DNA of 64,000 nucleotides from Escherichia phage Mimir124: sequence record PQ310662.1; one strand, written 5' to 3'. The first letter of the stretch is position 1, and each line of letters opens with the position of its first letter. Shown one piece after another: positions 13,036 through 47,996 of this stretch. Position numbers and translations under genes: made by a program. The notes below the pieces were generated by a model. That model ran no database searches. It was not told the DNA's origin and was given only the letters and a program-made list of their open reading frames with translations.

Positions 13036-13236
13036 ATGTCAGTATTTCAAGTAACTCCTGTTGGCAGTACTATGCGTAAAACTATTGTTGCAACTAACGT
13101 AGTAGACGTAGATGAAACTCCGGCAGGTGCTGTAATTCGTCTGATTGATGGACGTTCAGTATATGTAGAAGAAAGTTATCGTTCAGTACGTGGTTATATT
13201 CGCAAAGCCATGACTACCGCTTCTGACGCAGAGTAA
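13036..13236 (+). CDS. hypothetical protein (66 aa)
   Basis: ORF with GGAAAC upstream. Confidence 0.4.
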   Translation: MSVFQVTPVGSTMRKTIVATNVVDVDETPAGAVIRLIDGRSVYVEESYRSVRGYIRKAMTTASDAE

Positions 13237-13273
13237 GTAGCTGCCTAAATAGCCCAGCATAATTGGGCTATTT

Positions 13274-13570
13274 GTGAAGAAACTAACTCAACCCTACATA
13301 GGAACCATCATGGAATCTTTAGCAGCAATCCTCGTTCTGTTATTCGCACTAGCTGTATACCTTATCCCTACTATTATTGCTTTTACACGAGGCCATGCCT
13401 CTAAGTGGGGTATTGGTGTACTCAATATCGTATTAGGCTGGTCTTTAGTCTTCTGGGTAGTAGCACTGATTTGGTCACTGTCTAATAAAGGACAGTCTCA
13501 GACTACAATCGTTAACGTTGGTAGTGGTAATCAGTACAACGTGTCTCAAACGAGCCAGTCTGATAAGTAA
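13274..13570 (+). CDS. superinfection-immunity-like small membrane protein
   Basis: IPTIIAFTRGH...LNIVLGWSLVFWVVALIWSL resembles the Imm-type two-TM signature; true start may be the internal M (MESLAA). Confidence 0.4.
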   Translation: MKKLTQPYIGTIMESLAAILVLLFALAVYLIPTIIAFTRGHASKWGIGVLNIVLGWSLVFWVVALIWSLSNKGQSQTTIVNVGSGNQYNVSQTSQSDK

Positions 13571-34664: not shown

Positions 34665-35441
34665 TATCGTGAAGGGTTCTGTCAGAATCCTTTGAGATAG
34701 GAACTCCTATCATAACCTTTCTTAACTTAATCTTTGCCGTATGGCACTGACGCTAGGGGTGGCCCCCCATCCGTCAGACAGACTATTTTAAGAATGGGTT
34801 ATCTCAGAAAATGTAAAGCAACATTCGGGTTAATCAATGGCCTCTCCTATAGGGGCCATTTCTGAGTCTTAGGCTATATCCCAAAGGTTAGTATCTTTGG
34901 GATAAGGCTTCAGATCCCTTATCAAACTAGCTGCTCAATGTTGAGCATATTAATCAACCAAGCCCAATAAGGGGGCGGGAGTTTAATGCCGGTAAGCATA
35001 AGCCTATCCGTCTACAACATCGAACTGTTAGATCTTACATGCAATATAGGGTATAAAGGGAGGACTCGTCCCCTCCCTCCTATTATGAACTATCGGAGAG
35101 TGCATTAGTTGATTAGCTGTGGAAGGTAGGCCGATGTCCACGAGCATGGCCCAGAGCTAGTGTACTCCCCGATAGTTTTCGTAGCGATTATGCGGTTTTT
35201 TAGAAACGAACCAATAACATAAATGCAAACGAAGAAGCGTATCTGATGGTCGCCTAACAGCGTAACCTCAGTCAGGAGTGAGTCGTCCTGATTATCAAAC
35301 GACCGTGGAGTTCTCCCGTCCATGTATTAGAAACGGGGGACCAATTACCAGTTGCACGAGATGGCTTGACATGTTCAAGTTTGGACTAAGTGTGACACCG
35401 CTAGATTGGAGGGCTGCTGCGGTAAGCTATAGACTCCAACC

Positions 35442-35469
35442 GGAGGTTCGAATCCTTCACTGGTAACCA
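35442..35469 (+). ncRNA. tRNA 3' module (canonical T-arm GGAGG-TTCGAAT-CCTTC, acceptor 3' strand, discriminator A, encoded CCA); 5' half not resolved
   Basis: Exact GGTTCGAATCC T-loop motif; the only complementary 5' acceptor strand (taccagt) lies 121 nt upstream at 35346. Confidence 0.4.
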
Positions 35470-35545
35470 ATTCAAAGTAGCACTGTATCTTTAAATGTTT
35501 CCCGGCATTCAAAGAACCCACCGTGACAGTGCTACTCTGAATTGG
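35467..35545. repeat. 20-bp inverted repeat (19/20) flanking a 39-nt spacer
   Basis: ccaattcaaagtagcactgt (35467-35486) versus acagtgctactctgaattgg (35526-35545). Confidence 0.7.
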
Positions 35546-35642
35546 AAGAATTAAGACGGGTCTGGTTGAAGTAGATGGGGTTCGATTACCTCCGGTGGAG
35601 TAATCCACTAGCGTGCTTGGTGCACGAATAAGACTTAGTACT

Positions 35643-35667
35643 GGTGGTTCGATTCCATCCCCCGTTA
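35643..35667 (+). ncRNA. tRNA 3' module (T-arm GGTGG-TTCGATT-CCATC + acceptor 3' strand ccccgtt); candidate 5' strand gatgggg at 35574 (94-nt span)
   Basis: Canonical T-arm geometry; no standard D/anticodon arms found by hand in the intervening sequence. Confidence 0.35.
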
Positions 35668-35861
35668 CCTGAAGTCGCCAGGTACTTATGGCAAACGGGT
35701 AGTAACGAACTAGTCATTCGTCAAACGCCCACCCAATTATGAGTCAGCAAGAACGCCTTCACTTAAACTTAAACAAAAAAGCTTAACGCAATAATTATGT
35801 AGGGGTATGTAAGGATTGCGAAGAAGGAGCCAGTTAGAGCCTGGCATGACTCACCTATTAT

Positions 35862-35935
35862 GTCCACTTAGCTTAGACTGGGAAAGCAACCGACTAATAA
35901 TCGGAAGGTCACTGGTTCAAATCCAGTAGTGGATA
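35862..35935 (+). tRNA. tRNA (74 nt, canonical cloverleaf; anticodon loop CTAATAA, anticodon reads AAT in standard register)
   Basis: Acceptor gtccact/agtggat (7 bp), U8, D-stem gctt/aagc with GG in D-loop, anticodon stem ccga/tcgg, 5-nt variable loop, T-arm actgg-ttcaaat-ccagt, discriminator A. Confidence 0.6.
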
Positions 35936-36166
35936 CTTATTCAGCAGTAACATAGTCCTGATTGCATAGCACTCTAAAGACAACACTGGTAAGACAGTCC
36001 AGTGGCTGCTAATGTATTGTTATTCCCCTCGACGGGAATTTCGCTAGTGAAGGTAACACTTAAAAATCCAAACCTACGTCTTACTACTATCGGGCTATCA
36101 ACCCACGGTCGCTTAACCCTGTAGTGATAGTAGTTTGACGGCCTGCCTCGTTGACTGCGTTAAAGT

Positions 36167-36207
36167 CACTAAGTCCCTCGGAGCCGTCACTCTGGGGGAC
36201 TTTTTTA
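36167..36207 (+). terminator. rho-independent terminator closing the non-coding island
   Basis: aagtccc...gggggactt hairpin followed by tttttattt. Confidence 0.5.
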
Positions 36208-37646: not shown

Positions 37647-40600
37647 TTAATTTACCAGGTTCATCCAAGGGTTAAGGTTGTGAGCACGAAGCCCCTGACC
37701 AAAGCCCCATGAGTAATCCAGACTACCCTTAGCAGCAATGCTAAAGATGTTGTCCTGAATAGGTAAGCCAACGTTACCAAACATGGTAGGAGTTGGAGCC
37801 AACATAGCCATAGCAGCATGCACTGGGTTATTACGAATCATGGACACTGCAACTTTTGCAGAACGAATCTTAAAGTTGTAGAACCACATTAAACCAACAC
37901 TTTCCATATACCCACGGAAGCGACCAGGTAAACGATCATAGTTAATGAACTCTTCCGTTACACGTCCTAGTGCTTCTTCACGAGTCTTACCTTTACGCTG
38001 GGTCAATTCATCATAGATGATTGCTTTAGCGATAAAGTCAGAGTACTCAACGGTCTTCTGGATACCCTGGAATAAAGCAGTATCCTTAGTGATAAGTGCA
38101 TAACGTCCGGCAGTACGTACTGACTTAGGTAGCTTATCTGCCAATTTACTCATGTACTCTTGAAGTTTACCTTCGGTAATAAGGATGTCATCACGACCGA
38201 TACCAGCGTCTGCAATTGAAGAGAACTCACCAGCTTCTAACAGAGGCCAGATACTCATACGCTTATGGCTATCAGTAATGGACTGAATCTCAGCCTTAAG
38301 TTTACGAATCTGGTTCGGGTTAGTAGCTGCACGTAATTCTGCTTCTGCATCTACCTGACGCAGACGAGACTTCAGGTACTGGTTAATCTCAGCAGTTTTC
38401 TGTGGAATGCTCTTAGCAATGTTCTTAACCGGTACGCCACGGGCAACCATCTGGTAAAGGTTAGCCAAGAAGTTAACAGCAGGTACGACTACTGACTTAA
38501 CTACAATCAGAGTCTTGGCTTCTTTAACTAAGTTCTGAACCAGGTTCTCACCACCCATAGTGTACTTATAAGCACGGTTGCCAAATACACCCAGCATAGC
38601 TTTCTTGAAGGTATCCAGGGTTTCCGGGGACCAACGAGAATTACCAGACCAGGCATCACCAACAGAAGCTGCACGATAACCAAGTGCATCATTCAGCATG
38701 TCACGACGCACCCACAGTTCGCCATCACCAAACAGGCTTTCTGCTTTCCGTCGAGTTTCACTGTTCATCAGCTTAAGTGCATCAGCAGTTACTGGGTCCA
38801 GTTTAGAACCAAGAAGGTTCACATACTGGGACTTGTTAGAGGCAGACATCTTTATGTCGTTCTCATACATACTATGCAGGTTCTCAATCAGCATATCGTT
38901 GAAACGCTGTGCCTTAGCCTCTTCCACCTGACGCCCACGCCATACACCAATTGCACGTGCAAGATGGTTCTCACCTTCAATATGCTTCAGCATGTTAGGG
39001 TCAATGGATTGCTCATAAGCAACTACATTACCTTTATCATCATATACAGGCAGGAGTGGTTCATTACCACGTTCACCACGAGCCAGTGCTTTAGTGATAC
39101 GGTCTACGGAAGGCTTGTCAGTGATACGACCTGCTACCATGGAACCCATCGTAAAGCCTGTACCCAGGTCTACACCACCAGCAGTATTACGAACGTTCTG
39201 TAGGATACCCTGTGAGAATGGAGCCTGTGCCTGTACTGGTGCAAAGTAATAACTACGTGCCGGACCACGGTTAGCAGAACTACCTTGATAAGTACCCAGA
39301 CGTACATAGGACTTCTCAATCAAATCAGCAAACTGACTATCTTCAGCAACAATCAGATTAACGCCCTGTTTAGTCTCACTAGGGATATGCCCTTTGTACT
39401 GGTTCAGGGTTGCACGCATATCAGATTTGGCTTTAGCCATTTCATCTTTACGCTGACCAACCAGATAAGAAGTAGCAAAGTCCATTCCCTCAACTTCTGA
39501 TTGAGCCAGTGAAGATAACATCTCACGGTCGGACTTATTCATTGCTTCCAGTGCATACAGGGTAATCAGTTTATCCAGTTGAGCTACATCTACAGTAGAA
39601 CGAGCAGCCTGACGTTCACCCAGCATACGAGAGATTGCAGTAGCATTACGCAGCAGGTTATTACCGACTGTACCATTAATCATGTACTGAGCCAGTTGCT
39701 TAGATTTACGACTAATAAGAGGCCAGTTACGACCAGCTTGTTTTTGCAAATCTGCTTCCAGCTTATTCACTTCACGGTCAACAATCTTCTGGTCAGTCAG
39801 CAGGTCACGGATTTCAGCCAGAGACATAGTGTCACGCAGAACAGCTAAGTCAGTTTTACCCATACCAGTGTGCATTGCTTTCCACTCATCTTTAGTCAGC
39901 TTACGGCTGAACTTAGATGCGATAGTGGTGGGCAGGTGTTCACGAAATTGTTGACGGTCTGCTTGTACCTGTGCACGAACTGCTTTAATTAAATCATATA
40001 CAGAAGCATTACTCTTAGTACGACCAGTTAGGTCATTAACTAAGTCATGGAAAGGTTGCCATACCTTGCCTTGGTTCATTGCAGCCATAACACCTTCAGC
40101 TACGATTACACCATTCTTCTCTGTAGCAATGGCAGCTACCAGTTGTGCAGCATGAGCAGCACCTTTAACCAACGGGTTCTTGGTATTAGCTGCAACTTCA
40201 CGAGCACTTTCTAAAGCACGGGTGGACAGTGCATCAATAGAATCCACCAGATACTGGTTAGCACGGTCGATAGCATTACCACTAGGTATAGCAACGGAAT
40301 CATAAAATGACTGTGCATTGAGGCTGGTCTGCATGATTGTCTGAGCCAGTGCATCCGTCCCTTCCTGCACATTGGTGGCTTTGGTATCACCTGTTACACG
40401 AGCATTCAGGCTAGACATTGCAGCAGTACCGATGTTAGTCAGCATTGCATCAATGGTATTACCAGATTTCTTATCTGCTTTCATAACAGGAATGTTAGCC
40501 AGTACATTACGTACTTCTTCACTAACCATTGCCAGACCAACAAAGGTAGGCAATAAGGAAGAACGACCCTGTGCATCAAACTCAATGTTGTTAGCACCCA

Positions 40601-43600
40601 TGATGGTATCAAACTTCTGTTGAGCATAGTAACGGTCAGCAGGGTTAGTGCTATCAGGGTCAGCCATGAATGCTTCAACGGTCAGGTTCTTAGTGACGTG
40701 TGCGTAGTATTCCTGTGCACGAGAAAGAGCAGCCGGACTAATAGCAGCTTCAGTAGCCAAAGCAGCAACAATGTTAGTGAACAGTCGCTGTTCCTGCATA
40801 TTCATAGTGAAGCCATGAGCCTGAACATCACGAGTTACTTTAGTTGCATTCACTACTGCATCAGAGAACTTACCCTTACGAATTACTTGCTGTACCGGTT
40901 CTGAACCAATGTAGTTAGTAATCAGCTTATCAAAGGTCTGCCCCAACTCTTCCAGACGGGTATTGTCACCGTATGCTTTGTTATGGAACAGAGTAGTGTC
41001 TTTGGCTACAGCAGCAGTAGGAGCCTGCCCACGCATAACTACAGAAGAGTTAAACAGTAAGCCAGAGAACATATCATCTGCGTTAGCAGGGGCTTTCTTA
41101 CGACCAAATACCAGACGTTTGATTGCTTCATATACAGCCTGAACCATGGCCTTAAGTGCAGTGGTTTTCTTCTGCTTACCAATCAATTCACGGTTGGTTA
41201 AACCCCATGCCATGTACTCATTCAGTGCAGCAGCTTTAGCCATTGCTGGTTCAATAAAGCCATTAGACAAGTGACCATTAATGGTATTGAGTGCATCAGC
41301 ATATGCTTCACGTACTGCCGGGGATTCATCCTTAACATCCAGAGTACGGAACTGGTTCATCAGGTCTTCAATATTCTGGACTGCTTCATTAGAAGTACCT
41401 TCATAGTGAGCCAGTACAGATTCAAAAGTAGAAGCATGTACCAATTCATGAACCAGAGTCTCTAAGGAAGGAGTAACTAAGTAGATGGTCTTATCTTCAA
41501 AGTTAGTCCAGCCATATGCATTACCAGCTTCAGCAGCTTCAATATCTTCCGGTGCTGGGCGAGTAATGTTCTTCTCAATAGCATAAGCATCCAGTTGAGC
41601 AGGAGTACCATAAACAACCTTGTAGTCTTTAGCAGCAAGGGATTTCTGTACTTCTTTCAATACTGCTTGCTGTTCTGGGGACATCTCTTTAGCCAGCTTA
41701 GTGATAGCAGTATTGGACAGCAGACGTACACCGGACTTCAGTACACGACCTACCTTCTCCATTGCTGGTACTTCTTTCACTGGTTCTGCTTTAGCAGCAC
41801 GTACTGCATCACGACGCTTATTTAATTCAGCATCAAACAGCTCGTTCAGCTTAGCTACTTGTTGGTCTACAGTCAGACCTTCCAGAGAAATTTTACCGTT
41901 GTTCACATAAGGAGCACCTACAGCAGCCATCTGGTCAACAGTAGTCTGTACCTGGTTCATTACTTTGTGGCGAATATCTACACCCAGAGCAATGTTACGC
42001 AGATTACGTTCAATCTGTTCAGCACCAATACGTAACAGGTCATCAGTAGCACCTTCACGTTGGTCATATTCCAGAGCAGATTTAGCGATAGCCTGTTTGG
42101 TTTCATCAGACAGTTTGCTGAAGTCTACGTTCTTCATGAACTTAGCGAAGGAGTCATAAACATTCTTGATAGGGTTTCCTTGCCAAGAAGTATATACAGC
42201 CTCGTTAGCTTTACGACTTGCATCAGTAATGTCATTAATACCAATGTTCATACCATCAAAGATTTTCAGGGTATTCTTCGGAGCACCCTTCATAGTAGAA
42301 AGAGTCTGCATCATCATGCCATCACCAGTACCGATGGTCATAAATGGAATACCTGCAACACCTGCCTGTGAAGGAGCATAGATGCTCATTGGCACACGCA
42401 TACGGTCATCTAAGTTGGTAGCCAGTACTTGGTTAGCAACATCAGTGTTCTCACTACCAGCAATGTAGAAAGTCTGTGAGCCAGTCTCAATCATTGGAGC
42501 CAGCGGAGATAAGCTATTCTGAATTTCATTCAGTTCTTTCTGCGTTAAGAAATCACCTTTCTTCCATGTTGAGTCTTTTTCTTTTTCTGCAAGTTTAGCC
42601 TGTACTGCCTGTTGGAACATATCCTGCAATACCAGAGACTGAATCTGGGTAGCCTTCTGTAAGTTCTCAGTAGAATGCATCAGACCTTCACCAACAGTAT
42701 TTCGAATACCAGTACGCATTGGTTCAACGAACAGGTGAAGCATGTTCTCTTGTAAGTTCTTCAGGGCATTACCAGATACAGTAAACTTCTGTGGGTCTAA
42801 CTTACCAGTCAGAGCACCTTCTACCTGCTGAATAGATAACTCACCCTTACGCATAACTGGAACATTGCCAGTCAGTGCTTCCATAGAAGTAAGGAAAGTA
42901 TCCAGCATAGCCTGAGCATCAGCCTCAGATGCAGCCTCCTTACCAAACATTGCCATAGCCGGGGAAATACTAGGGTCAGCAGCACGAGCTTGCAGAACGT
43001 CGCTGAAGCGTTCGTAGATGGTATCAGTAATTGCACTAACCATCTTGCCAGCAATACCACGAGCACCAGAACCATAGATGGTAATGGTTAGTGGGTTTTT
43101 AGCGATACCACGTTTCAGGTCCAGTGTACCGTCTTCATTCAGGTTAAAGTCTTTGATGAACAGGTCCATTAACTTCTGGAGATGATTCATCTGGCTCATA
43201 ACAGGAACGTTGTTACGGTAAGTACTACGTAATTCACCAAGTGCTTGTTGCAGACCATTAGTAGATGCTTCATACAGGTCAACACTGTCATCCTGTGAGC
43301 GATGCTCGTTCATAGTCTTACCAGCTTTACCGAAGAACAAACCACCCTTAGCAGTATTCTTAATCCAGTCTGGAGTGAACTTACCACCGGTCATTAATAC
43401 CATTGCGTTGATTGGGCCATTGGTTACACCATCAGCTTCAACGTACAGTGGGGTATTAAAATTGGCACGGTCATCGCTATTCAGGTAACGGGCATATTCC
43501 ATCAGAGCCATGAGAGCTACGAATGATTTATCACCACCCAAAGAGGTCTTAAGAATATCCACTGCATCAACTGGTAAGTAACCAGACTTATCAAACTCAA

Positions 43601-46600
43601 CCATCATATCAACAGCAGGTTTCAGGTTACCTTCCAGAGCTTTGGTCAGCTTTTCAGACATAGCTTCACGGGACATGTTATGTACCTTGATGCCTAATGC
43701 CTGAGCCAGACCTAACTGAAAGTCAGAGAACGCTTGGCTGTTTTCATTACTCAAGTCAATAGTAGAGAAGGTTGGCAGAATTGCTTCACGAACCAGCTTA
43801 CTGGATTGTGGGTTATTCTTACCAAGCATCTGCATACGACCTACACGGGTCATGTTGTAACCATAGTGAATAGGAGTATCCAGTCCATTCTCCTGTTCCT
43901 GAACCTGATTGATTACCCCAAACAAGGAATCGTATGCCATAGACACGGACAGGTTCTTACATTCCAATGATTTAGCAGTGTTTACGTTCAGTAGTTCAGG
44001 ATTAATCGTACCAGCACCCATCAGTTCCAGAATGTTGTCACGACCCAATGCTTCATAGAAATTAACCATCGGCATGTGTACACGGAACTCAGTAGCCTGT
44101 TCTGCTTTAAGAGCAGCTTTCTGTTCTGGAGTATTCTTGACAGCCGGGTTACGTAACTGAGTTTGAGCCACGGAAGGAATATCATCCCCGAAGTACATTT
44201 TCTCTTCCGGTTCTACGAGGACAGCTTCCTCAATAGCAGTAGGGAAATTGTTAATGGCATCGTTATCATCCAGCTTCTCAATGGTGTACAGACCTACAGT
44301 CTTATTGGAGGCTGGGTCAATTTCAGACACATCCAGCATAGACTCTTTAACTTCACCCATCTCAATAAAGGAAGACAGAATCTCTGTAGCCATTGCCATT
44401 GGGATACCCTTGGTATAACCCAGTGGTGCATTAGGATTACGATTCAAACCCCAATAGGATTCAATCTTTTGAGCCAGTGAGTTAGTAGCTTCAACCAGGG
44501 TCTGAGCATTCTCGAAGTCAGCCAGAATACCTTCAGGTAACAGGGATGCTTCTACACCAGTAATAGCAGCTACATCTTTCATGTCTTTAATGGCAGCATT
44601 CTGTGTAGCAGTCAGTCGCCATTGCAAACCAGCAAGTACAGCAGTCTCTAGCAACTGGTCATTGAACTTAAAGGTGTCACCATCCTTCTCAACGATATTC
44701 AGCAGTTTACCACCCACCCAACGGTTAGCTTCAGTACCTTCTGCAAAACGTTTACCAACATTCTTGTTAGCAAGGAACTTAGCTAGACGGTCAGAAAGAG
44801 TAGTCTTCAGGGTTTCACCAAAATCAAACAAGTCCTGATAACGCTTAATCACATCACTTGTGAGAGCGTTATTTTCTTTTTGAGTAAATGCTTCAAAACG
44901 AGCAACAGAAGACAGTGCTTTCTTAACATCAGTCAAAGGAGACTCAGAACCAATGGTACGAGACTTAGGTTCTTCCGGTAGGGTAAATGCTTTCAGGAAC
45001 TGGTTCGGTGTCTTTTCATTGTTATAGACAGGGAACACTGTTTCCATTTCTGTTTTGGTTTCGACTACTTCCTGGGTAGTATCTACTGTTTCAGACTTAG
45101 TAGTAGAGACTTCTTCTGTTTTTGGGCTAGTCTCCATAGTAGGAGCAGTCTTATTTTCTACCACTGGTTTAGCTTTAGGCTGTACAGTAGTAGTGTCCTC
45201 TTGCACTGGTGCAGGAGTTTCATCAACCTGATTCACTGGTTCATTGGTCTGTTGGGATTGAGCAGCGTCAAGATTGCCCTGACGGAACTCTTTAACTACC
45301 TGGGCAGCAGGCTTGTCCAGACGTGAATCCAATGGGGTAACTTTCACATGAGAAACATTAAGCTCCGGGTAAGCCGTAGCAAGTGCGTTAGCAATATCAG
45401 CTACGGTTTTGGCCTCCAGTCCTACTTGCTGGGCAAACTTAACAGACTTGGTATCGTAAGGATTGACACCGAGTCCAGTACGACTACGTACCCATTCACG
45501 GGAAGGCGAGAGAGCCTGATAATGAACAGACTTATTCTTATCCGCATTCCCAGAAATCAGATGCTCATTCAACGCTCCGACCTTATTCTGCATGTGCTGG
45601 GCGAACTTCATAAAGTCGCTCAGATAAGCGGAGGCCAAATCGAAGTTACCAGAGTTATACGCAGAACGAATGCGTTTCGCATGTTGCAACGCAGAGTACT
45701 GTCCTTCGTTAGAACGAGACTCATCGGTTTTAATTTGTTTACTAACAATGTCTTGAGGACGTAAGCCCAGTTCTTCTGCTTTAGCGTCGAACTCACGTGC
45801 ACCCTGTAACAAGGCAGCAGCAGATTGCAGGGCAGCACGTTGATGATTCCCCAGTGTAATCTTACCTTCACTTGCATGTTTCAGAACCATGTTCACTGAA
45901 TCTGCATCCAGTACTTCTGGGGATACATCAGCAGCCATAGCAATGTTGTTTGCTTGGGCTTGATTAGCTTCTTCAGTAGCTTTCAGCTTACCTGCTTCAG
46001 CCTGTTCCTGAATCATGGAATGGATAGCACGGTATGCACGGAGTACTTTAGGTGTATTCTGTACGTTAGCCATCAGGCCAGAGAACTGGTCTACGATAGT
46101 AGCAGCAGGGGAACCTTGTTCCAGATTAGCCAGAGCACCTGGGTCACGGTTAATGAAGCTATCCATAGACATAATGTTGTCATACATCTGGATTGCAGCT
46201 TCCATTTGAACGTTAGGATCTTCAGCAGTATTAACCAGGTCAGCCATCTTCTGAATAGCTTCTACACGGTTAGTGGAACCAGAAACAGCTTCACGGATTA
46301 CCAGGTTAGCTTGTTCCAACTCTACTGGGTCGAACTTCATTGCCTGAGTTAAGTCAGCAGCATACTGAGTAGCAGCAGCTTTCTCTTCTGGAGTGATATC
46401 CATTGCATCTACTGCTTCCTGTACAGTTGCTTGTGCCTGCTCTGCCTGAGCAGCAGCTTCCTGTGCAGCAGCGTTAACCGTAGCATCAGCTACAGGGGAT
46501 GCTTGTTCATTACGCTTAGCAACTTCTTCCCCACGTTGAACCAGGATGTTAGTAAGAGGAGATGCAGCTTTTGCTAATGTTTTACCAACCAGAGAAGCAC

Positions 46601-47996
46601 CAGCCAGAGTAGTACGTAGAGCAGGACCAGCAGAAGCACCAACTGCTTTAACAGTTGCACCTGGAGCTTGAGCAACCCCAGCACTACCGAAGCCATAAAG
46701 TGCACCAAGACCTGCTTGCTCACCAACCCCTTTGAGAGTGTCACGGGATGCATCAACATTTTCCTTGATTGCACGGTTCTGGGCATACTGACCGAAGCCG
46801 GATTGAATACCCTCTTCTACAGTTTCACGGAGCATGTTAGAACCAGCACCAGCCAGTGAACCTACCTTAAGTGGGTTAAGTTCAAAACGAGATACCAGTG
46901 GGCCGGTAGCAGCAGCAACTGGAGCAGTTAAGCCAGCAGCAATAATACCTGTTTCAGATGCAGTCTGACGACGTGCTTCATCAGGGGATAATCCATCAGC
47001 AATATGTTGTTGGTAAACAGGAGACTTACTTGCCAAATCTTGATGGGACATCTTCATGATTTCAGAAGCAGTCTGTTGGTATGCACCACCAGCTTCCATA
47101 CCACCAATTGCAATAGCAGGTGCAGCAACACGACCAGCAGACAATGCAACCTGTGCAGGGCGTGAACCTAACTCAGCAGCTAAGGTAATACCCTTAACAG
47201 CTTTATCACCACCTACCATTACTTTACCAAGTGCAGATACACCACGGATAAGTGGACCACCAGTAAAGAGGGAACCAACACCTTCACTCAGTCCGTCGGA
47301 AGCAGCCATACCATTATCAAGTGTATTAGCAACAGAATCGAAAGCATCACGACCAATGCGAGACAAGGAGGCAACCAAATCGCTCTCCCCATTTTTGACG
47401 TCTTGTTCATAGAGTTTCTGGTTCTTTTGAGCAGAAATCTGGTTCTGATTCTGAACAACTTTACGGGTAGCATTCAGTGCATCAGATTGTAAATTGTGTA
47501 CACCTTCATTCAACCAATCCATCCCGGAAGCAATGGATGCCCCGGCATTATCATTGACCAGACCTGTGCCAAGAGCAGCAATGCCCCCAAGGGTATTAGC
47601 AACACCAAGACCAACACCAGAAAGAGTATCGCCAAATGCTTCTGCGTTAGTACGTTGTTTAGATAAGTCCTGACGTACAACATCAGCAGCATTAGCTCGG
47701 CTATTAAGAATTTGTAGACCTTGCTCATTACCGTACTTATTAATGATTTCTAATGGAGAGGCTTGAGTGAAATCTGCCTGAAGTGAACCCGGTTCGAATG
47801 CACCGATTCCAAGATTACCTACTCGTCCAGTCTGGAGATTGTAAGCGTTCTCTGGGGTTAATTGGAAAGGGCTTTGCCCTTGTGCAGCTTGCTTCTGAGA
47901 GGTTGCAGTAGAGACATCGACTTGCTTAGCAGTAGTGATGCTGTCTGCGAAACCTGCCAGACGGTCAAATGTTGACATAGCATGTTTCCTGTTCAA
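37647..47996 (-). CDS. virion-encapsidated giant RNA polymerase (N4 vRNAP-like)
   Basis: Single 3449-aa ORF (N4 vRNAP is about 3500 aa); first gene of the leftward late module; co-occurs with a split RNAP II. Confidence 0.75.
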   Translation of the reverse strand: MNRKHAMSTFDRLAGFADSITTAKQVDVSTATSQKQAAQGQSPFQLTPENAYNLQTGRVGNLGIGAFEPGSLQADFTQASPLEIINKYGNEQGLQILNSRANAADVVRQDLSKQRTNAEAFGDTLSGVGLGVANTLGGIAALGTGLVNDNAGASIASGMDWLNEGVHNLQSDALNATRKVVQNQNQISAQKNQKLYEQDVKNGESDLVASLSRIGRDAFDSVANTLDNGMAASDGLSEGVGSLFTGGPLIRGVSALGKVMVGGDKAVKGITLAAELGSRPAQVALSAGRVAAPAIAIGGMEAGGAYQQTASEIMKMSHQDLASKSPVYQQHIADGLSPDEARRQTASETGIIAAGLTAPVAAATGPLVSRFELNPLKVGSLAGAGSNMLRETVEEGIQSGFGQYAQNRAIKENVDASRDTLKGVGEQAGLGALYGFGSAGVAQAPGATVKAVGASAGPALRTTLAGASLVGKTLAKAASPLTNILVQRGEEVAKRNEQASPVADATVNAAAQEAAAQAEQAQATVQEAVDAMDITPEEKAAATQYAADLTQAMKFDPVELEQANLVIREAVSGSTNRVEAIQKMADLVNTAEDPNVQMEAAIQMYDNIMSMDSFINRDPGALANLEQGSPAATIVDQFSGLMANVQNTPKVLRAYRAIHSMIQEQAEAGKLKATEEANQAQANNIAMAADVSPEVLDADSVNMVLKHASEGKITLGNHQRAALQSAAALLQGAREFDAKAEELGLRPQDIVSKQIKTDESRSNEGQYSALQHAKRIRSAYNSGNFDLASAYLSDFMKFAQHMQNKVGALNEHLISGNADKNKSVHYQALSPSREWVRSRTGLGVNPYDTKSVKFAQQVGLEAKTVADIANALATAYPELNVSHVKVTPLDSRLDKPAAQVVKEFRQGNLDAAQSQQTNEPVNQVDETPAPVQEDTTTVQPKAKPVVENKTAPTMETSPKTEEVSTTKSETVDTTQEVVETKTEMETVFPVYNNEKTPNQFLKAFTLPEEPKSRTIGSESPLTDVKKALSSVARFEAFTQKENNALTSDVIKRYQDLFDFGETLKTTLSDRLAKFLANKNVGKRFAEGTEANRWVGGKLLNIVEKDGDTFKFNDQLLETAVLAGLQWRLTATQNAAIKDMKDVAAITGVEASLLPEGILADFENAQTLVEATNSLAQKIESYWGLNRNPNAPLGYTKGIPMAMATEILSSFIEMGEVKESMLDVSEIDPASNKTVGLYTIEKLDDNDAINNFPTAIEEAVLVEPEEKMYFGDDIPSVAQTQLRNPAVKNTPEQKAALKAEQATEFRVHMPMVNFYEALGRDNILELMGAGTINPELLNVNTAKSLECKNLSVSMAYDSLFGVINQVQEQENGLDTPIHYGYNMTRVGRMQMLGKNNPQSSKLVREAILPTFSTIDLSNENSQAFSDFQLGLAQALGIKVHNMSREAMSEKLTKALEGNLKPAVDMMVEFDKSGYLPVDAVDILKTSLGGDKSFVALMALMEYARYLNSDDRANFNTPLYVEADGVTNGPINAMVLMTGGKFTPDWIKNTAKGGLFFGKAGKTMNEHRSQDDSVDLYEASTNGLQQALGELRSTYRNNVPVMSQMNHLQKLMDLFIKDFNLNEDGTLDLKRGIAKNPLTITIYGSGARGIAGKMVSAITDTIYERFSDVLQARAADPSISPAMAMFGKEAASEADAQAMLDTFLTSMEALTGNVPVMRKGELSIQQVEGALTGKLDPQKFTVSGNALKNLQENMLHLFVEPMRTGIRNTVGEGLMHSTENLQKATQIQSLVLQDMFQQAVQAKLAEKEKDSTWKKGDFLTQKELNEIQNSLSPLAPMIETGSQTFYIAGSENTDVANQVLATNLDDRMRVPMSIYAPSQAGVAGIPFMTIGTGDGMMMQTLSTMKGAPKNTLKIFDGMNIGINDITDASRKANEAVYTSWQGNPIKNVYDSFAKFMKNVDFSKLSDETKQAIAKSALEYDQREGATDDLLRIGAEQIERNLRNIALGVDIRHKVMNQVQTTVDQMAAVGAPYVNNGKISLEGLTVDQQVAKLNELFDAELNKRRDAVRAAKAEPVKEVPAMEKVGRVLKSGVRLLSNTAITKLAKEMSPEQQAVLKEVQKSLAAKDYKVVYGTPAQLDAYAIEKNITRPAPEDIEAAEAGNAYGWTNFEDKTIYLVTPSLETLVHELVHASTFESVLAHYEGTSNEAVQNIEDLMNQFRTLDVKDESPAVREAYADALNTINGHLSNGFIEPAMAKAAALNEYMAWGLTNRELIGKQKKTTALKAMVQAVYEAIKRLVFGRKKAPANADDMFSGLLFNSSVVMRGQAPTAAVAKDTTLFHNKAYGDNTRLEELGQTFDKLITNYIGSEPVQQVIRKGKFSDAVVNATKVTRDVQAHGFTMNMQEQRLFTNIVAALATEAAISPAALSRAQEYYAHVTKNLTVEAFMADPDSTNPADRYYAQQKFDTIMGANNIEFDAQGRSSLLPTFVGLAMVSEEVRNVLANIPVMKADKKSGNTIDAMLTNIGTAAMSSLNARVTGDTKATNVQEGTDALAQTIMQTSLNAQSFYDSVAIPSGNAIDRANQYLVDSIDALSTRALESAREVAANTKNPLVKGAAHAAQLVAAIATEKNGVIVAEGVMAAMNQGKVWQPFHDLVNDLTGRTKSNASVYDLIKAVRAQVQADRQQFREHLPTTIASKFSRKLTKDEWKAMHTGMGKTDLAVLRDTMSLAEIRDLLTDQKIVDREVNKLEADLQKQAGRNWPLISRKSKQLAQYMINGTVGNNLLRNATAISRMLGERQAARSTVDVAQLDKLITLYALEAMNKSDREMLSSLAQSEVEGMDFATSYLVGQRKDEMAKAKSDMRATLNQYKGHIPSETKQGVNLIVAEDSQFADLIEKSYVRLGTYQGSSANRGPARSYYFAPVQAQAPFSQGILQNVRNTAGGVDLGTGFTMGSMVAGRITDKPSVDRITKALARGERGNEPLLPVYDDKGNVVAYEQSIDPNMLKHIEGENHLARAIGVWRGRQVEEAKAQRFNDMLIENLHSMYENDIKMSASNKSQYVNLLGSKLDPVTADALKLMNSETRRKAESLFGDGELWVRRDMLNDALGYRAASVGDAWSGNSRWSPETLDTFKKAMLGVFGNRAYKYTMGGENLVQNLVKEAKTLIVVKSVVVPAVNFLANLYQMVARGVPVKNIAKSIPQKTAEINQYLKSRLRQVDAEAELRAATNPNQIRKLKAEIQSITDSHKRMSIWPLLEAGEFSSIADAGIGRDDILITEGKLQEYMSKLADKLPKSVRTAGRYALITKDTALFQGIQKTVEYSDFIAKAIIYDELTQRKGKTREEALGRVTEEFINYDRLPGRFRGYMESVGLMWFYNFKIRSAKVAVSMIRNNPVHAAMAMLAPTPTMFGNVGLPIQDNIFSIAAKGSLDYSWGFGQGLRAHNLNPWMNLVN

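What the first reader, a model, noticed from the sequence alone, without database searches (positions are those of the whole stretch)
35467..35545. Long 20-bp inverted repeat abutting the CCA end of a tRNA-like module
ccaattcaaagtagcactgt and acagtgctactctgaattgg pair over 20 bp with one mismatch around a 39-nt spacer. That is far longer than a terminator stem. It could form a cruciform in DNA or a long hairpin in RNA, and might be a replication origin element, a processing site or a recombination/packaging signal.
Basis: seen in the sequence. Interest (0 to 1): 0.55.

Follow-up and report, generated by a model that had tools for sequence, protein, structure and literature searches.

The report
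Conserved spacer hairpin between phage tRNA-like RNAs
The 20-bp inverted repeat is a real, evolutionarily maintained hairpin that separates two tRNA-like RNAs in an unannotated small-RNA cluster of an N4-like coliphage, most likely an RNA boundary or processing stem rather than a replication or packaging signal, and the same cluster holds an apparently undescribed RNA that is antisense to the host tmRNA.

Summary
Arms 35467-35486 and 35526-35545 pair at 19 of 20 positions around a 39-nt tip, far beyond chance. The repeat starts exactly on the CCA of a tRNA-like RNA.

The window is a G7C-like N4-like phage (Gamaleyavirus). The hairpin lies in a roughly 1.5-kb ORF-poor stretch (about 34700-36200). 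This stretch is a + strand array of small structured RNAs closed by one strong terminator.

Across 16 distinct orthologous arm pairs, 12 of 20 base pairs change on both sides and 91% of cells stay paired (0 of 500 shuffles reach this). The tip, in contrast, is swapped freely (33-82 nt, unrelated sequences). So the stem is what selection maintains.

Both neighbours are tRNA-like RNAs whose acceptor stems also covary. My best reading is an RNA-level boundary or processing stem. It may be an RNase III-type site, and it probably descends from a "tRNA-like tip on a long stem" element. Origin, packaging, terminator and N4 promoter-hairpin readings find no support.

In passing: the module at 35171-35343 carries a 10-codon tmRNA-like tag frame (ANEEAYLMVA). 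Its 5' arm is the reverse complement of host ssrA nt 70-106. This family is widespread in enterobacterial phages and missed by ARAGORN and Rfam.

The parts
35467..35486 (+). HP-B 5' arm (CCAATTCAAAGTAGCACTGT). Its first three bases are the CCA of the upstream tRNA-like RNA.
   Evidence: Covariation with the 3' arm in 16 distinct orthologues.
35487..35525 (+). HP-B tip: a 39-nt variable interior, predicted to extend the stem by 5 + 6 further pairs with an asymmetric loop.
   Evidence: Fold. The tip is replaced by unrelated sequences of 33-82 nt in close relatives. The tips in Bas96, F22 and L139 contain a T-arm, GTGAGGTTCGAGTCCTCAC.
35526..35545 (+). HP-B 3' arm (ACAGTGCTACTCTGAATTGG).
   Evidence: A conserved A.C mismatch at arm position 9 (A35475 opposite C35537) is present in 13 of 16 orthologues.
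35346..35469 (+). M2: a 124-nt tRNA-like RNA. Acceptor 35346-35352 / 35459-35465, T-arm 35442-35458, discriminator A35466, encoded CCA 35467-35469. No G3:U70 pair. Not called by ARAGORN or Rfam.
   Evidence: Acceptor stem TACCAGT/ACTGGTA becomes TACTGGT/ACCAGTA in KP8 and TATCAGT/ACTGATA in UE-S5a. T-stem GGAGG/CCTTC becomes GGGGG/CCCTC. No tRNA or tmRNA match. No sequence similarity to ssrA.
35546..35554 (+). AU-rich single-stranded spacer AAGAATTAA between HP-B and the next RNA. Conserved as AAGAATTA(A/T) in relatives.
35555..35669 (+). M3: a second tRNA-like RNA with two T-arm-like hairpins. Acceptor GACGGG (35555-35560) / CCCGTT (35661-35666), T-arm 35643-35659, ending ACC.
   Evidence: Acceptor covaries: GACGGG/CCCGTT (window), GGTGGG/CCCACT (UE-S5a, ShWW44, 24-32N), GGCAAG/CTTGCC (KP8).
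35088..35177 (+). HP-A: a sister long hairpin (21-nt arms, 48-nt tip) immediately 5' of, and overlapping, the tag module.
   Evidence: Arms covary: window ..CGG../..CCCCG.. versus ShWW44 ..CAA../..CTTTG... The equivalent hairpin lies upstream of the tag module in unrelated phages.
35171..35343 (+). M1: tmRNA-related module. It comprises a 5' arm antisense to host ssrA (35171-35197), a resume context TAAAT plus a 10-codon frame GCA..GCC (35225-35254) with TAA (35255-35257), two H-type pseudoknots (35272-35303 and 35306-35339), and ACCA (35340-35343).
35862..35936 (+). Canonical tRNA-Ile (anticodon AAT), the only tRNA called in the window and the last RNA gene of the array.
   Evidence: Rfam tRNA, 62.6 bits.
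36171..36202 (+). Strong intrinsic terminator (13-bp stem plus T-run) that closes the + strand small-RNA array.
   Evidence: Annotated as a terminator in PhAPEC5, PhAPEC7 and G7C.

Best explanation
HP-B is an RNA-level structural element of a + strand polycistronic small-RNA array. The array sits at the end of the phage's replication-gene cluster.

What selection keeps is the roughly 20-bp stem, which carries a conserved A.C mismatch 9 bp from its base. The tip is not kept.

The stem fills the spacer between two tRNA-like RNAs (M2 and M3). It most likely acts as a boundary or processing stem:
1. Either a double-strand-specific endonuclease cuts in the stem (host RNase III is the obvious candidate; 20 bp is about its minimal substrate), or the folded stem directs cleavage to the 9-nt AU-rich spacer next to it.
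2. M2 is then left with a short 3' trailer that exonucleases can trim back to its encoded ACCA.
3. M3 is left with a short leader for RNase P.

In evolutionary terms the hairpin looks like a decayed member of a family of tRNA-like tips on long leader/trailer stems. Other members are HP-A in this window, the single hairpin of phage G7C, and the hairpins flanking the tag module in siphophage-sized (about 47-57 kb) contigs such as Klebsiella phage Carvaje.

Shown: the hairpin, its covariation, the variable tip, the structured neighbours, the strand of the array.
Inferred: that it is transcribed, that it is cleaved, and by which enzyme.
For: - Stem covariation: 16 distinct orthologous arm pairs, 91.3% of cells paired, 12 of 20 pairs changed on both sides, and no shuffle of 500 reached the observed value on any of the five measures. 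Sliding the partner by 1-3 columns drops pairing to 20-47%.
- Upper stem: positions 11-19 are never mismatched on the + strand, while their 8 G.U cells would be C.A on the - strand.
- Tip turnover: tips of 33, 36, 39, 44, 50 and 82 nt sit between arms about 89% identical, and BLAST breakpoints fall at 35488 and 35526.
- Constant position: the hairpin always follows the 3' end of a tRNA or tRNA-like element, though a different one in pSb-1/HK2, 24-32N, KP8 and Jgk1. It always precedes AAGAATTA(A/T)G and then the next module.
- Structured neighbours: both flanking RNAs have covarying acceptor stems.
- Strand of the array: there is one + strand terminator and no convincing one on the - strand, the tRNA-Ile and all T-arms are on the + strand, and the flanking genes are on the + strand.
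- tRNA-like origin: tips carry T-arms in Bas96/F22 and G7C and in hairpins flanking the tag module in siphophage-sized contigs.
- Not coding: the overlapping ORFs match no Pfam or PHROG family, and the tip-length differences do not preserve a reading frame.
Against: - There are no transcript or RNA-end data, so cleavage and the enzyme are pure inference.
- The - strand RNA would fold slightly better (-38.5 against -32.8 kcal/mol).
- The recurrent mismatch at positions 9-10 is A.C on the + strand, which would be G.U on the - strand. Strand assignment therefore rests on context.
- The sequences are related, so the shuffle control overstates significance.
- Arm-to-arm gene conversion in DNA could mimic compensatory change.
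- A covariance model built from the arms finds only orthologues. It does not find HP-A or the hairpins flanking the tag module in other phage groups. The 'family' link therefore rests on shared design, a short shared core (AG.AGCAYTG / CAGTGCT.CT) and the intermediate G7C hairpin.
- G7C does without HP-B, so the hairpin is dispensable when its neighbouring modules are absent.
Confidence: 0.5

Rival explanations
1. Relic only. HP-B is the decaying remnant of a tRNA-like gene whose leader and trailer were complementary. It persists by descent and has no present function.
For: Tips with T-arms in Bas96/F22/L139 and in G7C. The window's own tip has lost any T-arm. G7C lacks HP-B.
Against: A neutral relic should lose pairing. 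Instead 12 of 20 pairs show both-side changes and the upper stem is never mismatched in 16 lineages, including the distant Klebsiella KP8 group. The arms are far better conserved than the tip.
Confidence: 0.15
2. DNA-level recombination joint. The inverted arms are conserved islands at which modules and tips are exchanged between co-infecting phages, possibly helped by homing endonucleases. Pairing is maintained by arm-to-arm gene conversion rather than by RNA function.
For: Mosaic breakpoints coincide with the arms and with the ACCAATT junctions (35337-35347, 35457-35465, 35488, 35526-35553). G7C encodes an HNH homing endonuclease just upstream.
Against: Breakpoints at conserved islands are expected for any conserved element. 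Outside positions 9-10 there is a G.U excess over A.C on the + strand of about 16 to 8, which favours RNA-level tolerance. No recombinase site motif was recognised (integron attC R'/R'' cores are absent by inspection).
Confidence: 0.15
3. HP-B is part of the M2 RNA itself: a 3' extension that keeps the CCA base-paired. This would mask or regulate the 3' end, or act as a 3' stabiliser against exonucleases, rather than being removed.
For: The CCA (35467-35469) is the first three pairs of the stem. The free AU-rich spacer lies 3' of the hairpin, where RNase E would be expected to cut, which would leave the hairpin attached to M2 (inference).
Against: The same hairpin follows four unrelated upstream elements, and in pSb-1/HK2 the first arm bases are TTA, not CCA. 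It is therefore not tied to M2 or to a CCA.
Confidence: 0.12
4. Replication origin, packaging signal or DNA cruciform.
For: Only the length and stability of the repeat.
Against: There is no GC-skew inflection here. Long variable spacers disfavour cruciform extrusion. The element is absent from G7C. It is embedded in an RNA-gene array.
Confidence: 0.03
5. Transcription signal: an intrinsic terminator or attenuator, or an N4-type virion-RNA-polymerase promoter hairpin.
For: It is a stable stem-loop.
Against: No T-run follows (GGAAGAATTAAG). The terminator scan does not call it on the + strand, and the array's terminator is at 36171-36202. N4 early promoter hairpins have 5-7-bp stems with 3-nt loops at the genome's left end (established knowledge), unlike a 20-bp stem with a 39-nt tip.
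Confidence: 0.02

Closest known systems
RNase III processing stems (phage T7 early-mRNA R sites; leader/trailer stems around 16S and 23S rRNA; RNase III step in phage T4 tRNA-cluster maturation)
   Same: A long, roughly 20-bp irregular stem with an internal mismatch sits between functional RNAs of one transcript. The stem is conserved while the distal part is free to vary. Flanking RNAs would need further trimming by RNase P and 3' exonucleases.
   Different: No cleavage has been shown. The arm sequences are unrelated to T7 sites. Here the stem does not enclose the functional RNA, as rRNA stems do, but sits in the spacer. Its tips carry tRNA-like pieces in relatives.
tRNA-like punctuation elements (mitochondrial tRNA punctuation; MALAT1 mascRNA)
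   Same: In relatives, a T-arm-bearing tRNA-like fold sits on top of the stem. It could be recognised by RNase P and 3' endonucleases to cut a long transcript into pieces.
   Different: The window's copy has no T-arm. The paired leader and trailer extend the acceptor helix by more than 10 bp, which is not typical of RNase P substrates.
Intervening segment of circularly permuted (two-piece) tmRNA genes
   Same: It follows directly on an encoded CCA 3' end inside a locus that also carries a tmRNA-like tag frame. It would have to be removed to free that end.
   Different: The RNA after the hairpin (M3) has its own complete acceptor stem and is not the 5' partner of M2. M2 lacks the G3:U70 alanine identity pair and has no sequence similarity to ssrA.
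Intrinsic terminators and N4 promoter hairpins
   Same: They are stem-loops in phage intergenic DNA.
   Different: HP-B has no U-tract, a stem three to four times longer, a large variable tip, and the wrong genomic position.

Membership tests
RNase III processing site | Double-stranded stem of about two helical turns (at least about 20 bp), often with an internal loop or mismatch | tested here: met
   20-bp stem with one conserved A.C mismatch, plus 5 + 6 further predicted pairs in the tip.
RNase III processing site | Staggered cleavage by RNase III in vivo or in vitro | not testable with these tools
   Needs rnc hosts, in vitro cleavage and end mapping.
RNase III processing site | Location between functional RNAs or cistrons of one transcript | tested here: met
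   It lies between M2 and M3, both with covarying acceptor stems. A single + strand terminator lies downstream. Co-transcription itself is inferred.
tRNA or tRNA-like gene (the hairpin itself) | T-arm with a TTCRANY loop next to the 3' acceptor strand, and a cloverleaf | tested here: not met
   No T-loop in 35487-35525. No ARAGORN or Rfam tRNA match. The feature is met only in the tips of relatives (Bas96/F22; G7C).
Intrinsic (rho-independent) terminator | GC-rich stem followed by a U-tract | tested here: not met
   The stem is followed by GGAAGAATTAAG, and it is not called on the + strand.
N4 virion RNA polymerase promoter hairpin | 5-7-bp stem with a 3-nt loop and conserved sequence at early promoters (from memory) | tested here: not met
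   20-bp stem with a 39-nt tip, in the middle of the genome.
Dispersed repeat, MITE or terminal inverted repeats of a mobile element | Multiple copies in different genomic contexts | tested here: not met
   One locus only in the window at up to 3 mismatches. One hit per related locus with model R1.
Replication origin or packaging site | Strand-composition switch, iterons or AT-rich unwinding element, and conservation in all relatives | tested here: not met
   The skew maximum is at about 37-38 kb. The element is absent from G7C.
Any Rfam 15 family | Covariance-model match | tested here: not met
   Nothing overlaps 35467-35545 at E up to 1.
tmRNA (for the neighbouring modules M1 and M2) | Tag reading frame without a start codon, with the U(-5)A(-4) resume context, ending in hydrophobic ..AA or ..VA plus a stop | tested here: met
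   TAAAT-GCA..., ANEEAYLMVA* in the window. 133 of 136 pattern matches give a 10-aa tag. -4A is invariant and -5T nearly so in 44 sequences. The importance of A86 and U85 comes from PMC2481249.
tmRNA (for the neighbouring modules M1 and M2) | tRNA-like domain formed by the 5' and 3' ends of the same RNA (or of two paired pieces), with the G3:U70 alanine identity pair and CCA | tested here: not met
   ARAGORN at default calls no tmRNA in any of 133 loci. Rfam tmRNA models reach only 23-25 bits against gathering scores of 47-84. The M2 acceptor is U1-A72 / A2-U71 / C3-G70.
tmRNA (for the neighbouring modules M1 and M2) | Pseudoknots after the tag frame | tested here: met
   Two H-type pseudoknots. 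Helix 3 is 98% paired with 4 of 5 pairs changed on both sides, and helices 4-6 are 81-90% paired.

The most novel reading that the evidence does not exclude
HP-B and its sister HP-A are the processing or assembly joints of a phage-encoded multi-RNA system that reprograms host ribosome rescue.

In this reading, module M1 (35171-35343) docks by its antisense arm onto host tmRNA across nt 70-106. That region covers the 3' strand of pseudoknot 1, the frame-setting bases U85 and A86, the resume codon and tag codons 1-6. M1 thereby silences the host tag template and offers its own resume codon and 10-aa tag. The result would be a trans-assembled chimeric tmRNA, or at the least a dedicated anti-tmRNA. 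The flanking tRNA-like RNAs M2 and M3 would be further components or decoys, and the long hairpins would define the ends of each piece.

The M1-tmRNA complementarity is shown by computation. Actual pairing, tagging and any role for HP-B are not shown.
Probability: 0.25. Interest if true: 0.85.

Novelty: new variant of a known kind. Interest (0 to 1): 0.5.

Why it matters
The hairpin on its own is a well-supported example of a conserved RNA stem. It marks a region that genome annotations leave blank, or fill with doubtful small ORFs, as a structured small-RNA array.

That has a practical consequence. In dozens of Gamaleyavirus and Kaypoctavirus genomes the 1.5-2 kb after gp47 should be annotated as RNA genes, and the hairpin gives a defined handle for testing how such arrays are cut into pieces.

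The larger payoff is the neighbour it led to. This is a widespread phage RNA family that neither ARAGORN nor Rfam detects. It combines a tmRNA-style tag frame and pseudoknots with an arm antisense to the host tmRNA resume region. If that RNA really interferes with or rewires trans-translation, it would be a new kind of phage takeover of a host quality-control system. It is directly testable with standard E. coli phages (G7C-like, T1-like and Vi01-like).

Tried and rejected
1. An exact 14-mer from the arm searched in IMG/VR gave 120 loci, none of which has both arms. All were chance matches.
2. Covariance model R1, built from the arms, recovers only orthologues. It does not recover HP-A or the hairpins flanking the tag module in other phage groups. 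Homology of the hairpin families is therefore not demonstrated by sequence.
3. ARAGORN with lowered thresholds proposes several mutually inconsistent tmRNA and tRNA models. One uses GCTAGTG/CACTGGT as acceptor and another calls a 96-nt 'tRNA-Ser'. They disagree with the acceptor stem that actually covaries, so I did not use them.
4. RNAduplex with long partners is uninformative, because shuffled controls score as well as the real sequence. I replaced it with local alignment of the reverse complement.
5. I tested M2, M3, HP-B and the rest of the array for sense or antisense similarity to E. coli ssrA. None was found.
6. Protein-coding reading of the overlapping ORFs (35375-35608 on the - strand, 35278-35466 on the +, 35105-35323 on the -): no Pfam or PHROG match.
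7. Integron attC, MITE, retron and Y-RNA-like readings were considered from the sequence and dropped for lack of their core motifs or copies.
8. RNAalifold on the tag module gave a poor consensus because of the pseudoknots. I used hand-defined helices and pair counting instead.
9. Literature searches for a phage tmRNA-like or anti-tmRNA RNA, for these tag peptides, and for this region of N4-like phages found nothing relevant.

Full report
**What is there.** The window is a G7C-like N4-like podophage (Gamaleyavirus, Schitoviridae).
- A 3449-aa virion RNA polymerase ORF lies at 37647-47996 on the - strand.
- The closest records are Escherichia phages E20, PhAPEC5 and PhAPEC7.
- The inverted repeat is exactly as described. 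Arms 35467-35486 and 35526-35545 are 20 nt long with 19 of 20 complementary positions and a 39-nt interior.
- The arm occurs nowhere else in the window at up to 3 mismatches; chance expectation is 0.01.
- It is the most perfect of only seven inverted repeats of at least 17 nt in the 64 kb. Three of the seven cluster at 34867-35545.
- Predicted folding is far better than shuffles as + strand RNA (-32.8 kcal/mol, z = -6.0), as DNA (-20.5, z = -6.7) and as - strand RNA (-38.5). Energy alone therefore does not assign strand or molecule.

**Context.** The hairpin lies in an ORF-poor stretch of about 1.5 kb (roughly 34700-36200) after the gp46/gp47-like genes.
- ARAGORN calls a single tRNA, Ile (AAT), at 35862-35936.
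- Rfam confirms that tRNA and finds nothing on the hairpin.
- In relatives the same interval is annotated only with sporadic tRNAs (Cys, Thr, Ala, Val, 'OTHER') and doubtful small ORFs. In Klebsiella phage KP8 it is the phage's tRNA cluster (PMC6950046).
- One strong + strand terminator (36171-36202) closes the interval, and there is no convincing terminator on the - strand.
- The overlapping ORFs match no Pfam or PHROG family.
- I therefore read the interval as a + strand array of small RNAs. This is an inference from context, not from transcript data.

**The neighbours are structured RNAs.**
- *Upstream, M2 (35346-35469).* It has a 7-bp acceptor stem, a canonical T-arm (GGAGG-TTCGAAT-CCTTC), discriminator A and an encoded CCA. 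That CCA forms the first three bases of the hairpin.
  - The acceptor stem covaries: TACCAGT/ACTGGTA here, TACTGGT/ACCAGTA in KP8, TATCAGT/ACTGATA in UE-S5a.
  - The T-stem and an internal hairpin also show compensatory changes.
- *Downstream, M3 (35555-35669).* After a 9-nt AU-rich spacer, M3 is a second tRNA-like RNA with two T-arm-like hairpins.
  - Its acceptor stem also covaries: GACGGG/CCCGTT, GGTGGG/CCCACT, GGCAAG/CTTGCC.
- Neither M2 nor M3 is recognised by ARAGORN or Rfam.

**Is the hairpin selected?** I collected orthologues from 15 annotated phage records and from IMG/VR loci. They give 16 distinct arm pairs. Counting pairs on the 20-bp stem:
- 91.3% of cells form a standard pair.
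- 12 of 20 pairs change on both sides.
- No shuffle of 500 reached the observed value on any of the five measures.
- Pairing collapses to 20-47% when the partner is slid by 1-3 columns.
- Positions 11-19 are never mismatched on the + strand.
- Position 9 is an A.C mismatch in 13 of 16 sequences, so it is a conserved irregularity.

The tip behaves in the opposite way. Relatives about 95% identical in the flanks carry unrelated tips of 33 to 82 nt, and BLAST breakpoints fall at 35488 and 35526. The tips of Bas96, F22 and L139 contain a T-arm and a small tRNA-like fold.

The hairpin keeps its place while its upstream partner changes. That partner is M2 in most phages, a hairpin element ending ...CCCTGGCAA (no CCA) in pSb-1 and HK2, a short armless tRNA-like in 24-32N, and other tRNA or tRNA-like elements in KP8 and Jgk1. 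It is always followed by AAGAATTA(A/T)G and the next module. The stem, as a spacer element, is what is conserved.

Caveats:
- The sequences are related, so the shuffle control is generous.
- Outside positions 9-10 the + strand shows about twice as many G.U as A.C cells. The recurrent A.C at positions 9-10 would be G.U on the - strand.

**Relatives of the hairpin.**
- HP-A (35088-35177) is a sister hairpin with 21-nt arms and a 48-nt tip, immediately 5' of the next module. It also shows compensatory changes.
- Phage G7C lacks everything from 35090 to 35540. In its place it carries one hairpin with three notable features:
  - The base (CCAATT/AATTGG) is that of HP-B.
  - The core (GTGAGAAC/GTTCTCAC) resembles hairpins seen in unrelated phages.
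  - The 68-nt tip is a tRNA-like fold with a perfect T-arm.
- In siphophage-sized contigs the tag module (below) is flanked by tandem hairpins with arms ..CAGGTAAGAGCATT / AGTGCTCTTTCC.. and 50-90-nt tips, some with T-arms.
- The shared design and a short shared core suggest one family. A covariance model of the HP-B arms does not detect the others, so this link is suggestive only.

**Mechanism.** The best-supported reading is an RNA boundary or processing stem between M2 and M3.
- The stem length matches the minimal RNase III substrate.
- The tip is expendable, as expected if it is cut off.
- The CCA of M2 is buried in the stem, so it must be freed.
- M3 is left with an AU-rich leader of the same type (ATTATG/ATTAAG) that precedes the canonical tRNA-Ile and HP-A.
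- Precedents from general knowledge are the T7 RNase III sites, rRNA leader/trailer stems, and the RNase III step in T4 tRNA-cluster maturation.
- Cleavage, the enzyme and even transcription are inferred. I put 0.5 on 'RNA boundary/processing stem' and less on RNase III specifically.
- Rivals are a neutral relic, a DNA recombination joint, and a 3' mask or stabiliser belonging to M2. They are listed with their tests.
- Origin, packaging, terminator and N4 promoter-hairpin readings fail their defining features.

**What else turned up: module M1.** M1 (about 35171-35343) lies between HP-A and M2.
- It contains TAAAT-GCA AAC GAA GAA GCG TAT CTG ATG GTC GCC TAA. This is a start-less 10-codon frame encoding ANEEAYLMVA, which closely resembles the E. 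coli tmRNA tag ANDENYALAA. Rfam gives only sub-threshold tmRNA matches (23-25 bits).
- The module is conserved at 75-87% DNA identity in unrelated, unannotated phage regions: Ackermannviridae, many 46-49-kb Klebsiella, Shigella and E. coli phages plus Klebsiella phage Carvaje (56.9 kb), Aeromonas pIS4-A and Salmonella N4-likes.
- A degenerate pattern found more than 120 IMG/VR contigs. In 133 of 136 matches the frame is exactly 10 codons plus a stop (ANDDVVLMAA, ANEEMYLAVA, ANDEQFLAVA and others).
- As a control, the same pattern in 185,579 bacterial species genomes gave 24 matches. Only the three Enterobacterales ones have the tag.
- ARAGORN at default calls no tmRNA in any of the 133 loci.
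- The frame-setting bases of tmRNA, U(-5) and A(-4) (PMC2481249), are kept.
- The frame is followed by a stop-codon hairpin and two covarying H-type pseudoknots.
- No tRNA-like domain of the tmRNA type closes the RNA, and M2 lacks G3:U70.

**M1 is antisense to the host tmRNA.** The reverse complement of the conserved 5' arm aligns to E. coli ssrA nt 70-106. That region runs from the 3' strand of pseudoknot 1 through U85, A86 and the resume codon to tag codon 6. This holds in all seven variants whose alignments were inspected. The ssrA sequence was verified from RefSeq.
- Mean local score against ssrA: 27.6.
- Shuffled arms: 14.9 (sd 2.3).
- The RNA's own resume region: 14.4.
- The host scores higher than self in 78 of 79 non-redundant modules.
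- The 21 chance pattern matches in bacterial genomes score 10-23, against 26-35 for the three genuine ones.

The phage RNA is thus built to pair with the host tmRNA template while its own template has diverged at exactly the pairing positions. Whether it inhibits tagging, substitutes its own tag, or does something else is untested. I found no paper describing it. Known phage tmRNAs are of the standard or permuted kinds that ARAGORN detects (PMC4131195; PMC9004378).

**Verdict.** It is most likely an RNA boundary or processing element of a phage small-RNA array, which is a new variant of a known kind. It is of moderate interest in itself and of higher interest as an entry point to the tmRNA-directed module beside it.

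Noticed in passing
window 35171-35343 (antisense arm 35171-35197; tag frame 35225-35257; pseudoknots 35272-35339): A tmRNA-related module. It has a start-less 10-codon frame (ANEEAYLMVA*) with the U(-5)A(-4) resume context and two covarying pseudoknots. Its 5' arm is the reverse complement of host ssrA nt 70-106. The family is widespread in enterobacterial and Aeromonas phages (more than 120 IMG/VR contigs), is not called by ARAGORN or Rfam, and was found in no paper.
   Followed up: partly
window 35088-35177: A second long hairpin (HP-A: 21-nt arms, 48-nt tip). Its 3' arm overlaps the first bases of the antisense arm of the tag module. The arms covary, and an equivalent hairpin precedes the tag module in unrelated phages.
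   Followed up: partly
window 35346-35469: A 124-nt tRNA-like RNA (M2) with a covarying acceptor stem, a canonical T-arm and an encoded ACCA, but an oversized body: a long D-side arm and a 10-bp arm with a CUGCGGU loop. It is invisible to ARAGORN and Rfam, and its function is unknown.
   Followed up: partly
window 35555-35669: A tRNA-like RNA (M3) with two T-arm-like hairpins (near 35576-35592 and at 35643-35659) and a covarying acceptor stem, ending ACC without the final A.
   Followed up: partly
L005 (phage G7C) 1862-1976: G7C replaces window 35090-35540 with a single hairpin. Its base is that of HP-B, and its 68-nt tip is a tRNA-like fold with T-arm TTAGG-TTCAACT-CCTAA.
   Followed up: partly
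window 34895-35179 and 35108-35155: Further sub-modules of the ORF-poor region are conserved in other phage families, with no annotation there. 34895-35179 matches phiEco32-like Kuraviruses (SU10, NJ01, ECBP2). 35108-35155, the HP-A tip, matches Vi01-like Ackermannviridae.
   Followed up: no
window 35079-35088, 35733-35742, 35854-35863, 35549-35555; 35339-35345 and 35465-35471: Recurrent junction motifs. CC(T/A)ATTATG or GAATTAAG lies immediately before module 5' ends, including the canonical tRNA-Ile. ACCAATT lies at module 3' ends. These may be shared leader and trailer signals, and they coincide with mosaic breakpoints.
   Followed up: no
window 35862-35936: The only canonical tRNA is tRNA-Ile with an unmodified-looking AAT anticodon, which is unusual for bacteria (GAT is the norm). 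It is annotated as Ile or Xle in relatives.
   Followed up: no
window 35722-35809 and 34867-34914: Two more imperfect hairpins lie in the same array: 19-nt arms at 74% complementarity, and 20-nt arms at 80%. They were not examined in relatives.
   Followed up: no
L002 (UE-S5a) 2290-2354; L009 upstream of 2458: A short 'armless' tRNA-like element of about 65 nt (acceptor TCCGGTG/CGCCGGA, T-arm TCTGG-TTCGAGT-CCAGA, ACCA) sits in some relatives at the position of M2.
   Followed up: no
HP-A tip (window 35112-35119), PhAPEC5 HP-B tip (L001 ~2664-2671), L155, L160, L249: The octamer GATTAGCT recurs in otherwise unrelated hairpin tips and flanks of different phages.
   Followed up: no
window 13231-13289: A 26-nt-arm imperfect inverted repeat (77% complementary, 7-nt loop) lies elsewhere in the genome and was not examined.
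   Followed up: no
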